A stretch of 15,032 bases of DNA. Origin: a virus. Its lineage: Duplodnaviria; Heunggongvirae; Uroviricota; Caudoviricetes. A program made the position numbers and the translations under genes. This document shows positions 5,475-5,890 of the stretch, one piece after another (position 1 is the first letter of the stretch; the number at the start of each line of letters is the position of its first letter). The stretch lies in IMG/VR virus record IMGVR_UViG_2529293240_000016. One strand, 5' to 3'. The notes beneath the pieces were generated by a model. It searched no databases. It was not told the origin of the DNA and saw only the letters and a list, made by a program, of their open reading frames with translations.

Positions 5475-5496
5475 GAATATCAGAACCACACCACGC

Positions 5497-5520
5497 AGCC
5501 GGAGCAATCCGGCTTTTTTT
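5497..5520 (+). terminator. Rho-independent terminator
   Basis: Stem AGCCGGA / TCCGGCT with loop GCAA, then T7. Confidence 0.7.
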
Positions 5521-5615
5521 GCGTCATTTGAAACGGTATGGAGCACTACTGGCTTTTCGTCACGGTCCGGCATAGTTACTATCTGAAACAAACAGACACA
5601 ACAGAGGAAAACGCA

Positions 5616-5840
5616 ATGCCGATGAAATTTGATGAGATACTTAAACAGCGTGATAAATACCATGCTGACAACATGGAGACGATGAATATCACTGATTACC
5701 GCGCATTTCTGGAAACGGGGGCGCTGATTGAAAAGGATCATCATGGTTTTGTTCGTTGCGCGCTATCCGGTGAAATGCTGGCAGTAAATCCTGAACAGAC
5801 AGATGCATTGATAGAATTTCTGAAAGGGATCAGAGACTGA
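5616..5840 (+). CDS. Hypothetical small protein (74 aa), moron-like
   Basis: ATG at 5616 with SD AGGAAAA; acidic protein (MPMKFDEILKQRDKYHADNMETMN...); bracketed by two copies of the same terminator. Confidence 0.5.
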   Translation: MPMKFDEILKQRDKYHADNMETMNITDYRAFLETGALIEKDHHGFVRCALSGEMLAVNPEQTDALIEFLKGIRD

Positions 5841-5859
5841 GCACCCATACAGCACATAC

Positions 5860-5890
5860 AGCCGGAGCAATCCGGCTTTTTGTTATTTTT
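5860..5890 (+). terminator. Rho-independent terminator (second copy)
   Basis: Same hairpin as 5497-5520 plus T-run; the 23-mer CAGCCGGAGCAATCCGGCTTTTT is identical at 5496-5518 and 5859-5881. Confidence 0.7.

What the first reader, a model, noticed from the sequence alone, without database searches (positions are those of the whole stretch)
5496..5881. Identical terminator copies bracket a 74-aa ORF (moron-like cassette)
The 23-mer CAGCCGGAGCAATCCGGCTTTTT occurs at 5496-5518 and 5859-5881, each forming an intrinsic terminator, and the two copies flank ORF 5616..5840. This is the hallmark of a moron insertion or a recombination footprint, making the ORF a candidate accessory gene (anti-defence, defence or helper interference).
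Basis: seen in the sequence. Interest (0 to 1): 0.5.

Follow-up and report, generated by a model that had tools for sequence, protein, structure and literature searches.

The report
Optional satellite gene between twin terminators
Two copies of the standard transcription terminator of E. coli phage satellites (PICIs) bracket a real but uncharacterised 74-residue protein gene; it is a native satellite gene that is often lost between the two copies, not foreign cargo.

Summary
The 23-mer occurs exactly twice (5496-5518, 5859-5881), both copies fold as 7-bp GNRA-loop hairpins followed by a U-run, and they flank ORF 5616-5840.

The window is a degraded copy of a capsid-forming PICI, the EcCIEDL933 / O-island 51 type, lying between roxA and phoQ.

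The unit T1-spacer-ORF-T2 is a discrete mosaic block. Homology with other islands starts at T1 and ends at T2. The block sits in islands with different perC alleles and two unrelated capsid modules. About 40% of islands with the same late leader lack it and keep a single hairpin.

The moron reading is only partly right:
- The ORF (dN/dS ~0.1) belongs to a small acidic protein family native to PICIs of Enterobacterales.
- In most lineages examined the homologue lies between the replication and capsid genes.
- In several lineages it overlaps or abuts the upstream gene, with no upstream terminator.
- The same hairpin ends the early region of many E. coli PICIs behind different genes. It is a shared module junction, not a footprint of this gene.

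The protein gives a confident model with no detectable fold or family match, so its function is unknown. Interest is modest.

The parts
5313..5474 (+). Upstream gene: an in-frame ssb'-'perC deletion fusion (53 aa). It carries the first ~24 codons of ssb joined to the last ~29 codons of the PerC-family gene. T1 is its terminator.
   Evidence: Pfam PerC match covers only residues 21-49. Alignment to intact ssb and perC of L002 shows the fusion. Intact ssb-perC is present in relatives.
5496..5518 (+). T1: intrinsic-terminator hairpin (AGCCGGA-GCAA-TCCGGCT plus U7), which also marks the left boundary of the mosaic cassette.
   Evidence: Homology with other island types begins exactly here (query 22 = 5496).
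5519..5615 (+). 97-nt spacer. The 5' half is moderately variable. The 3' half (5566-5615) is almost invariant and contains the CA-rich leader and GAGG SD. It is a candidate activator-dependent promoter and/or 5'UTR of the ORF.
   Evidence: Variable in at least 2 of 24 alleles: 15% (5519-5565) against 2% (5566-5615), compared with 19% at ORF third positions. No sigma-70 consensus found. No significant RNA structure, z -0.47.
5616..5840 (+). ORF74: 74-aa acidic protein (pI 5.0), a member of an uncharacterised PICI-associated family (phrog_1957).
   Evidence: phrog_1957 E 2e-40. dN/dS 0.08-0.23. Homologues at 25-49% identity in other Enterobacterales. AF2 pLDDT 89.9. No fold or family match.
5859..5881 (+). 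T2: second copy of the hairpin terminator, which marks the right boundary of the cassette and the junction to the capsid-module leader.
   Evidence: Homology with 042-type islands ends exactly here. The single hairpin of empty sites carries T2-type right flanks.
5888..5926 (+). Conserved start of the late leader: TTTTGTAAATTATTTGTTCG followed by TTGTTC repeated at 5901, 5911 and 5921 (10-nt phase). Probably a regulatory site for the capsid operon, placed immediately after the early terminator.
   Evidence: Read. The same motif follows the ORF homologue, or its different terminator, in L049/L050, L057 and L059. It matches alone in further genomes (H122-H125).
6104..6140 (+). T3: hairpin GTCCTGG...CCAGGAC plus U7, ending one base before the capsid ATG (6141). 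The only AGGA lies in its 3' arm.
   Evidence: Fold -14.1 kcal/mol, z -3.4. Stem kept with a different loop in L059.
6141..7298 (+). Major capsid gene, the first gene of the cf-PICI packaging module that the terminators separate from the early region.
   Evidence: RefSeq annotation of near-identical records; ORF list.

Best explanation
The two 23-mers are two copies of the intrinsic terminator that ends the early (replication and regulation) region in many E. coli phage-inducible chromosomal islands. That hairpin also serves as a junction where early regions are joined to different downstream modules. The gene between the copies is a genuine protein gene under purifying selection, from a small acidic family native to PICIs and cf-PICIs of Enterobacterales. 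In most lineages examined its homologue lies between the replication genes and the capsid genes. In the EDL933/042 lineages, which include this window, the perC-type gene upstream ends in its own copy of the hairpin (T1). ORF74 therefore sits as a self-contained unit: T1, a conserved 5' region, the ORF, then T2. Two things follow from the direct repeat. First (shown), the unit behaves as a discrete mosaic block exchanged between islands with different perC alleles and different capsid modules. Second (inferred), homologous recombination between T1 and T2 can excise it precisely, leaving one hybrid hairpin. That would account for the many islands that lack it. Two points on expression are inferred. 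T1 stops early-operon transcription, so ORF74 is expressed either from an activator-dependent promoter in the invariant 50 nt upstream or by terminator read-through. T2 then insulates the capsid operon, which has its own conserved leader. The protein's function is unknown. My guess, at low confidence, is a protein-binding modulator acting at the early-to-late transition or on a host or helper partner, rather than a DNA-binding regulator, because the whole family is acidic.
For: Identity of the window: a cf-PICI between roxA and phoQ, at the same site and with the same layout as EcCIEDL933 (and paper 10.1101/2022.09.08.507074). Both hairpins flank the ORF in every E. coli-type locus that contains the whole ORF: 39 IMG/VR loci plus the RefSeq loci L001, L002, L005 and L006. 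Empty sites with one hairpin occur in otherwise intact islands. The hairpins of empty sites are hybrids: left flank T1-type and right flank T2-type, with the loop of either type. Counts: the ORF is in 541 of 5426 E. coli genomes, the late leader in 360, and both contiguous in 214. The block edges are sharp: variability is 63% / 9% / 15% / 2% / 10% / 67% / 9% / 89% along perC end / T1 / 5' spacer / 3' spacer / ORF / gap / T2 / downstream. The hairpin follows ssb, a phrog_1231 gene, at least three perC alleles or ORF74, and precedes at least three kinds of capsid module. A third copy lies in 042-type islands. The ORF is real, with dN/dS ~0.1. A wider family exists at 25-49% identity in Klebsiella, Citrobacter, Enterobacter, Salmonella, Xenorhabdus and Arsenophonus. 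Synteny between replication and capsid genes holds in all lineages examined except the Arsenophonus record: L049-56, L057, L058, L059 and L298. Homologues overlap or abut the upstream gene with no T1. A 9-kDa CP-933C protein, EDL933_1785, was detected by proteomics together with PchE (PMC5120812). I infer it is ORF74 from its size, its 406-nt upstream gap and the gene numbering.
Against: The origin of the T1 copy and of the 97-nt spacer is unresolved; similarity between the sequences downstream of T1 and T2 is not significant (59 of 1000 shuffles reached it). The empty sites could be the ancestral state rather than deletions; the hybrid hairpins fit both readings. Termination was not measured. 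The exact hairpin sequence also arises in unrelated bacteria, so some shared copies could be convergent. In the Arsenophonus 16-kb record the homologue follows terL rather than preceding the capsid gene. In L298 a reverse-strand gene lies between the homologue and the capsid gene. The equation ORF74 = EDL933_1785 is inferred, not looked up. No function is shown for the protein.
Confidence: 0.7

Rival explanations
1. Classical moron. ORF74 is foreign cargo with its own promoter and terminator that inserted into the perC-capsid intergenic region. It is expressed from the resident island for the benefit of host or satellite, for example in anti-defence or helper interference.
For: Presence/absence polymorphism with precise edges. 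An invariant 50 nt lies upstream of the ORF. The same unit occurs in two island backbones. A 9-kDa CP-933C protein was detected in uninduced cultures (the identity with ORF74 is inferred).
Against: Homologues sit between the replication and capsid genes in distant PICIs and overlap or abut the upstream gene with no upstream terminator. In every context I examined the family lay in a PICI-like element. No sigma-70 promoter was found. There are no PADLOC, Pfam or NCBIfam hits. The terminator is the islands' own standard terminator.
Confidence: 0.15
2. Regulated terminators. T1, T2 and T3 are checkpoints that keep ORF74 and the capsid operon silent until RNA polymerase is modified by an antiterminator. 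The candidate is the island's AlpA, whose Pseudomonas namesake lets polymerase bypass intrinsic terminators; a helper-phage Q-like factor is an alternative. The doubling tightens insulation. This reading is compatible with the best explanation rather than exclusive of it.
For: The hairpins are more conserved than synonymous sites (9% against 19% variable). No sigma-70-like promoter was found anywhere in 4400-6600, against 2.5 expected. Further + strand terminator-like hairpins lie inside the co-directional array, at 6104-6140 and 7308-7329. P. aeruginosa AlpA acts as an antiterminator (PMC7969949 and PMC9371919, abstracts). PICI AlpA is the required activator of the island cycle (PMC6092414).
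Against: There is no test of antitermination in any PICI. alpA lies outside the window. Islands with a single hairpin are common, so doubling is not required. T1 has decayed in some lineages.
Confidence: 0.3
3. The hairpin is a site for a dedicated recombinase, like an integron attC site, and ORF74 is a mobile gene cassette.
For: The cassette edges coincide exactly with the hairpins, and the hairpin sits behind many different genes.
Against: Only ORF74 is ever bracketed by two copies, at a spacing of 354 or 363 nt. There are no cassette arrays and no integron-type integrase in the annotations of these islands. A hairpin followed by a U-run is a canonical terminator. The hybrid hairpins, with variable crossover points, look like ordinary homologous recombination.
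Confidence: 0.04
4. Coincidence or convergence: two independently evolved terminators that happen to share a sequence.
For: The exact 22-mer recurs in at least 120 contigs of unrelated phyla, so this is a favoured terminator sequence.
Against: No shuffle gave even one match. Similarity extends a few bases beyond the hairpin on both sides. The same hairpin is used at the same structural position in many PICI lineages. A 74%-identical lineage has homologous but diverged T1 and T2.
Confidence: 0.03

Closest known systems
EcCIEDL933 (O-island 51 / CP-933C), the prototype capsid-forming PICI
   Same: Same integration site (roxA-phoQ) and the same gene order from the 248-aa ORF that follows alpA through to terL. 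The same T1-ORF74-T2 unit lies before the capsid gene, at 92.5% identity over the region.
   Different: In EcCIEDL933 the T1 loop is GAAA and the T2 loop GCAA, and the spacing is 354 nt rather than 363. ssb and perC (pchE) are intact there. The window copy has IS1 in the primase gene and an ssb'-'perC deletion. The papers I searched do not discuss this ORF or the terminators.
Phage morons (a promoter-ORF-terminator unit inserted between conserved genes, as in lambdoid and HK97-like phages; from established knowledge)
   Same: A small autonomous-looking unit ending in a terminator, variably present between conserved genes, with sharp boundaries.
   Different: The gene is native to the element family and is syntenic in distant relatives. 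No recognisable sigma-70 promoter is present. The flanking terminators are the element's own standard terminator, not one brought in with the gene.
Conserved boundary or 'linker' sequences at module junctions of mosaic lambdoid phages (from established knowledge)
   Same: A short conserved sequence at the border of exchangeable modules, with homology breakpoints located at it.
   Different: Here the junction sequence is itself a functional-looking terminator hairpin, and it occurs as a direct repeat around one gene.
Tandem terminators bypassed by processive antiterminators (lambda Q at tR'; P. aeruginosa AlpA)
   Same: Several intrinsic terminators lie in series ahead of a late structural operon, in an element whose master activator belongs to the AlpA family.
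   Different: Antitermination has not been shown for any PICI. This is an analogy only.

Membership tests
Intrinsic (Rho-independent) terminator | A G+C-rich stem-loop immediately followed by a U-run on the transcribed strand, placed after a stop codon | tested here: met
   7-bp stem with 5 GC pairs and a GNRA loop, followed by U7 (T1) or U5 (T2); T1 begins 22 nt and T2 19 nt after the stop codon.
Intrinsic (Rho-independent) terminator | Terminates transcription in vitro or in vivo | not testable with these tools
   No transcript data are available here.
Moron | Present in some and absent from other closely related elements, with precise boundaries | tested here: met
   L003 and L004 lack the unit and keep one hairpin. 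360 genomes carry the leader, of which 214 have the unit contiguous with it.
Moron | Own promoter upstream of the ORF | tested here: inconclusive
   No sigma-70 consensus site was found, but the 50 nt upstream are nearly invariant.
Moron | Gene foreign to the element family (extra cargo, not part of the conserved layout) | tested here: not met
   Homologues lie between the replication and capsid genes in PICIs of at least six genera, several of them overlapping or abutting the upstream gene.
Capsid-forming PICI (context of the finding) | PICI early genes together with its own HK97-type capsid, protease, portal, connectors, HNH, TerS and TerL, and no tail or lysis genes | tested here: met
   RefSeq annotation of 99%-identical records and of EcCIEDL933. 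int and alpA lie just outside the window.
RgdR (DUF4222 regulator of O-island 51) | 99-aa basic protein with a DUF4222 domain and RGD at residues 20-22 | tested here: not met
   That description fits window 1622-1921. ORF74 is 74 aa, acidic, and has no DUF4222 domain.
Integron-type gene cassette | attC-like recombination sites, cassette arrays and an integron integrase | tested here: not met
   Only one gene is ever bracketed, there are no arrays, and the sites are 22-nt terminator hairpins.
Known anti-phage defence proteins (PADLOC) | Significant match to a defence-system model | tested here: not met
   No hit for ORF74 or five homologues apart from one at E 0.037.

The most novel reading that the evidence does not exclude
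The ORF74 family could be a previously unrecognised, widely conserved satellite factor with a new fold. In this reading it acts at the boundary between replication and capsid production, for example by timing or licensing the satellite's capsid operon or by neutralising a helper or host protein. The PICI-wide GNRA hairpin would then be a regulated checkpoint read through by AlpA-type antitermination, rather than a plain stop signal.
Probability: 0.15. Interest if true: 0.6.

Novelty: new member of a known kind. Interest (0 to 1): 0.35.

Why it matters
The finding gives a concrete, testable picture of how E. coli phage satellites are assembled from modules. One short terminator hairpin marks the end of the early region behind whatever gene happens to be last. 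It is the point where different capsid modules are joined, and as a direct repeat it makes one gene easy to lose. The finding also flags a conserved small protein family under purifying selection. That family sits in the best-studied cf-PICI (EcCIEDL933), has no known fold or function, and is not discussed in the satellite papers I searched. For genome annotation, it shows that 'repeated terminator means moron' can mislead, and that the RefSeq 'trigger factor' call across T1 is probably spurious.

Tried and rejected
- **Weak PDB profile hit.** A match to N.BspD6I residues 83-121 (whole-sequence E 0.005, best stretch only 12 bits) looks like a 'G-L-I..D..G..L..G..LA' wing motif. I did not rely on it, because the fold searches did not support a winged helix and the family is acidic.
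- **Is ORF74 RgdR?** I tested whether it is the known O-island-51 regulator. It is not; RgdR is the DUF4222 gene at 1622-1921.
- **Does the repeat extend into a duplicated promoter region?** I compared the 97-nt spacer with the late leader. The similarity is not significant (59 of 1000 shuffles reached it).
- **RNA structure and RNA families.** The spacer shows no structure signal (z -0.47). Rfam gave nothing at gathering score, and only spurious miRNA hits at E ~0.5 on the 6003-6050 inverted repeat.
- **Phage database.** No match for the region.
- **Faulty alignment.** A first cassette alignment was contaminated by false pattern hits and was redone with a filter.
- **Locus-tag literature search.** The search by Sakai and EDL933 locus tags gave nothing direct on the ORF, apart from the EDL933_1785 proteomics lead.

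Full report
**1. Observation**

The 23-mer CAGCCGGAGCAATCCGGCTTTTT is present exactly twice, at 5496-5518 and 5859-5881 on the + strand. No further copy appears even with three mismatches allowed, and none of 200 shuffles gave a match. Each copy is a 7-bp stem (AGCCGGA/TCCGGCT) with a GCAA tetraloop and a T-run. The terminator scan reports both. Both fold as expected, at -15.7 and -14.1 kcal/mol with z -3.8 and -4.3. They bracket ORF 5616-5840 (74 aa), which has a GAGG Shine-Dalgarno 8 nt upstream.

**2. Context**

The window is a capsid-forming phage-inducible chromosomal island (cf-PICI) inserted between roxA and phoQ. Near-identical RefSeq records (99.3%) are annotated in this order: integrase, alpA-type HTH, Icd-like, DUF4222, primase, two small ORFs, PerC-family, the 74-aa ORF, then HK97-type capsid, protease, portal, head closure, connector, HNH, TerS and TerL.

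The prototype cf-PICI EcCIEDL933 (O-island 51 / CP-933C) occupies the same site and has the same layout, including the bracketed ORF (paper 10.1101/2022.09.08.507074).

The window copy is degraded in two ways:
- An IS1 (2817-3584, with a 9-bp target duplication GTACATGAT) splits the primase gene.
- A ~590-bp in-frame deletion fuses the start of ssb to the end of perC, giving the ORF at 5313-5474.

**3. The unit is a discrete, variably present block**

A sensitive search with 5475-6092 against 5426 complete E. coli genomes gave three classes:
- a full match;
- a match to query 22-407 only, which is exactly T1 to T2 (5496-5881), at ~91% identity;
- a match to the part from T2 onward only.

Fetching examples showed what these classes are.
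- L003 and L004 are otherwise intact cf-PICIs in which perC is followed by a single hairpin and then the same leader and capsid gene.
- L005 (E. coli 042) has T1-ORF-T2 in front of an unrelated capsid module of the lambda E/D type.

Counts from separate searches:

| Feature | Genomes (of 5426) |
|---|---|
| ORF present | 541 |
| This late leader, at least 80% covered | 360 |
| Cassette and leader contiguous | 214 |

So roughly 40% of islands with this capsid leader lack the unit, and more than half of the units sit in front of another module.

I compared 24 distinct cassette alleles segment by segment, scoring the fraction of positions that vary in at least two alleles:

| Segment | Variable positions |
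|---|---|
| perC end | 63% |
| T1 | 9% |
| 5' half of spacer | 15% |
| 3' half of spacer | 2% |
| ORF (all positions) | 10% |
| ORF third codon positions | 19% |
| stop-to-T2 gap | 67% |
| T2 | 9% |
| downstream of T2 | 89% |

The homology block therefore begins and ends at the outer edges of the hairpins.

**4. The hairpin is the islands' general early terminator**

In the 39 IMG/VR loci that contain the whole ORF, and in RefSeq loci L001, L002, L005 and L006, both hairpins are present. In most of them T1 has loop GAAA and T2 has GCAA, both GNRA tetraloops. Exact identity is a sub-lineage feature.

A scan of IMG/VR for AGCCGGAG[C/A]AATCCGGCTTTTT returned at least 120 contigs, most with a single copy. 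In those PICI-like contigs the hairpin directly follows ssb, a phrog_1231 gene, at least three perC alleles, or ORF74. It precedes at least three kinds of capsid module: the HK97-type leader, the lambda E/D type, and a ClpP-capsid fusion. The 042-type islands carry a third copy about 2.3 kb further on. Only ORF74 is ever bracketed by two copies, at a spacing of 354 or 363 nt.

Empty-site hairpins are hybrids. The left flank is T1-type and the right flank T2-type, and the loop is of either type. That is what recombination at different points within the repeat would produce, although an ancestral single hairpin is not excluded.

One control matters here. The exact 22-mer also occurs in at least 120 contigs from unrelated phyla. 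It is a recurrently evolved 'good' terminator, so its spread within PICIs must be argued from position and flanks, not from identity alone.

**5. The ORF is a native satellite gene**

- **Selection.** dN/dS against the window allele is 0.08-0.14 within E. coli and 0.23 for a 74%-identical variant.
- **Wider family.** A word-indexed search found only close E. coli relatives. An exhaustive HMMER search and a profile search found a wider family of 66-103-aa proteins. Those aligned are 25-49% identical to ORF74 and come from Klebsiella, Citrobacter, Enterobacter, Salmonella, Xenorhabdus and Arsenophonus.
- **Position.** In all lineages examined but one, the homologue lies after the replication genes and before the capsid gene of a PICI or cf-PICI. 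In L298 a reverse-strand gene sits between the homologue and the capsid gene.
- **No upstream terminator elsewhere.** In L059 perC overlaps the homologue. In L057 a ProQ/FinO gene overlaps it. In L049-51 and L055-56 the upstream gene ends 9-18 nt before it.
- **Downstream terminator elsewhere.** It has a different sequence (L052, L055, L057, L059) or is not evident (L049).
- **Diverged lineage.** In L058 T1 has decayed, and T2 keeps the stem with another loop.
- **Exception.** In a 16-kb Arsenophonus record the homologue follows terL.

**6. The protein**

ORF74 matches phrog_1957, a family of unknown function. It has no Pfam, NCBIfam or PADLOC family. The family is uniformly acidic, with pI 4.4-5.9.

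ORF74 is not RgdR, the known small regulator of O-island 51. RgdR is the DUF4222 gene at 1622-1921.

A proteomics paper reports a 9-kDa CP-933C protein, EDL933_1785, detected together with PchE (PMC5120812). Three facts fit ORF74:
- its size;
- its 406-nt upstream gap, which matches the 407 nt from ssb to the ORF in L006 when pchE is unannotated;
- the gene numbering relative to 'gene 1792' of the cf-PICI paper.

This identification is my inference.

**7. How it most likely works**

Shown:
- two terminator-like hairpins;
- a block with sharp edges;
- presence/absence polymorphism;
- a conserved 5' region;
- purifying selection;
- native synteny in most lineages examined.

Inferred:
- T1 ends the early operon after perC.
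- ORF74 is expressed from an activator-dependent promoter in 5552-5600 or by read-through. No sigma-70 consensus exists anywhere in 4400-6600.
- T2 insulates the capsid operon.

The capsid operon begins with a motif conserved across cf-PICI lineages: TTTTGTAAATTATTTGTTCG plus TTGTTC at 10-nt phase, 5888-5926. Its leader ends in a third hairpin with U7, one base before the capsid ATG.

Serial terminators ahead of a late operon, in an element governed by an AlpA-family activator, invite an antitermination model. P. aeruginosa AlpA lets polymerase bypass an intrinsic terminator, and PICI AlpA is the required activator. Nothing here tests that model.

**8. Verdict**

The feature is real. It is best described as an optional, recombination-delimited unit made of a native satellite gene between two copies of the satellites' standard early terminator. 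It is ordinary in kind (mosaic module junctions, terminators), already present though undescribed in the prototype cf-PICI, and of modest interest. The most interesting residue is the conserved protein family with no recognisable fold.

Noticed in passing
window 2817-3584 (target duplication GTACATGAT at 2808-2816 and 3585-3593): A complete 768-bp IS1 is inserted in the island's D5/primase gene, splitting it into ORFs 1918-2838 and 3571-4443. This island copy is probably unable to replicate.
   Followed up: partly
window 5313-5474: An in-frame ~590-bp deletion fuses the first ~24 codons of ssb to the last ~29 codons of the PerC-family (pchE-like) gene. RefSeq calls the product a PerC family regulator, although it lacks the N-terminal two thirds.
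   Followed up: yes
window 6104-6140: A third terminator-like hairpin (GTCCTGG...CCAGGAC plus U7) ends one base before the capsid start codon, and the only AGGA lies in its 3' arm. The stem is kept with a different loop in a divergent island (L059). It may be an attenuator or a translational operator for the capsid gene.
   Followed up: partly
window 5888-5926: The motif TTTTGTAAATTATTTGTTCG, followed by TTGTTC at 5901, 5911 and 5921 (exact 10-nt phase), is conserved right after the early terminator in divergent cf-PICIs (L049, L050, L057, L059). It also matches alone in further E. coli genomes (H122-H125). It is a likely binding site for the regulator of the capsid operon.
   Followed up: partly
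window 6003-6013 and 6040-6050: A perfect 11-bp inverted repeat (TTTCCCGCCTG / CAGGCGGGAAA) lies in the capsid leader and is also present in L059. It is the source of spurious Rfam miRNA hits.
   Followed up: no
window 1622-1921: This 99-aa DUF4222 ORF with RGD at residues 20-22 is an orthologue of RgdR (ECs1581), the published O-island-51 regulator of type III secretion and motility.
   Followed up: yes
L001 9863-9976 (about window 5462-5575); also L006 8965-9080: RefSeq annotates a 37-aa 'trigger factor' CDS (frameshifted in EDL933) that runs across the T1 hairpin. This is almost certainly a spurious call.
   Followed up: no
L005 6639-6660 and the same position in about 20 IMG/VR loci: Islands of the E. 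coli 042 type carry a third copy of the hairpin (GGCCGGAGAAATCCGGCTTTTT) about 2.3 kb downstream of T2, after the capsid, decoration and 137-aa genes.
   Followed up: no
Genome-contig loci L178-L257: The exact 22-mer hairpin plus T-run occurs in at least 120 contigs of unrelated phyla (Bacteroidota, Bacillota, various Pseudomonadota). This is far above random expectation and suggests convergent evolution of the same 'ideal' GNRA-loop terminator.
   Followed up: no
window 7308-7329: A strong terminator-like hairpin (GAAGGGGCT...AGCCCCTTT) lies directly after the capsid gene and before the protease gene. This is the arrangement expected for a partial terminator setting the ratio of capsid to downstream proteins.
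   Followed up: no
L055 1-5000 against 5500-12261 (Xenorhabdus, NJAK01000002.1): Two cf-PICI-like copies lie close together in inverted orientation. Each has the 77-aa gene, the ORF74 homologue and a capsid gene.
   Followed up: no
L299 (Arsenophonus nasoniae CP123539.1, a 16,022-nt record): A cf-PICI-like gene set (capsid to terL, ORF74 homologue, primase) makes up a whole 16-kb record. This may be an extrachromosomal or excised form, and here the ORF74 homologue follows terL.
   Followed up: no
L052/L053 5790-5990 (Klebsiella): An iteron array of AAGTGCGGCA-type repeats, a likely PICI origin of replication, lies directly upstream of the ORF74 homologue, between the helicase gene and the ORF.
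   Followed up: no
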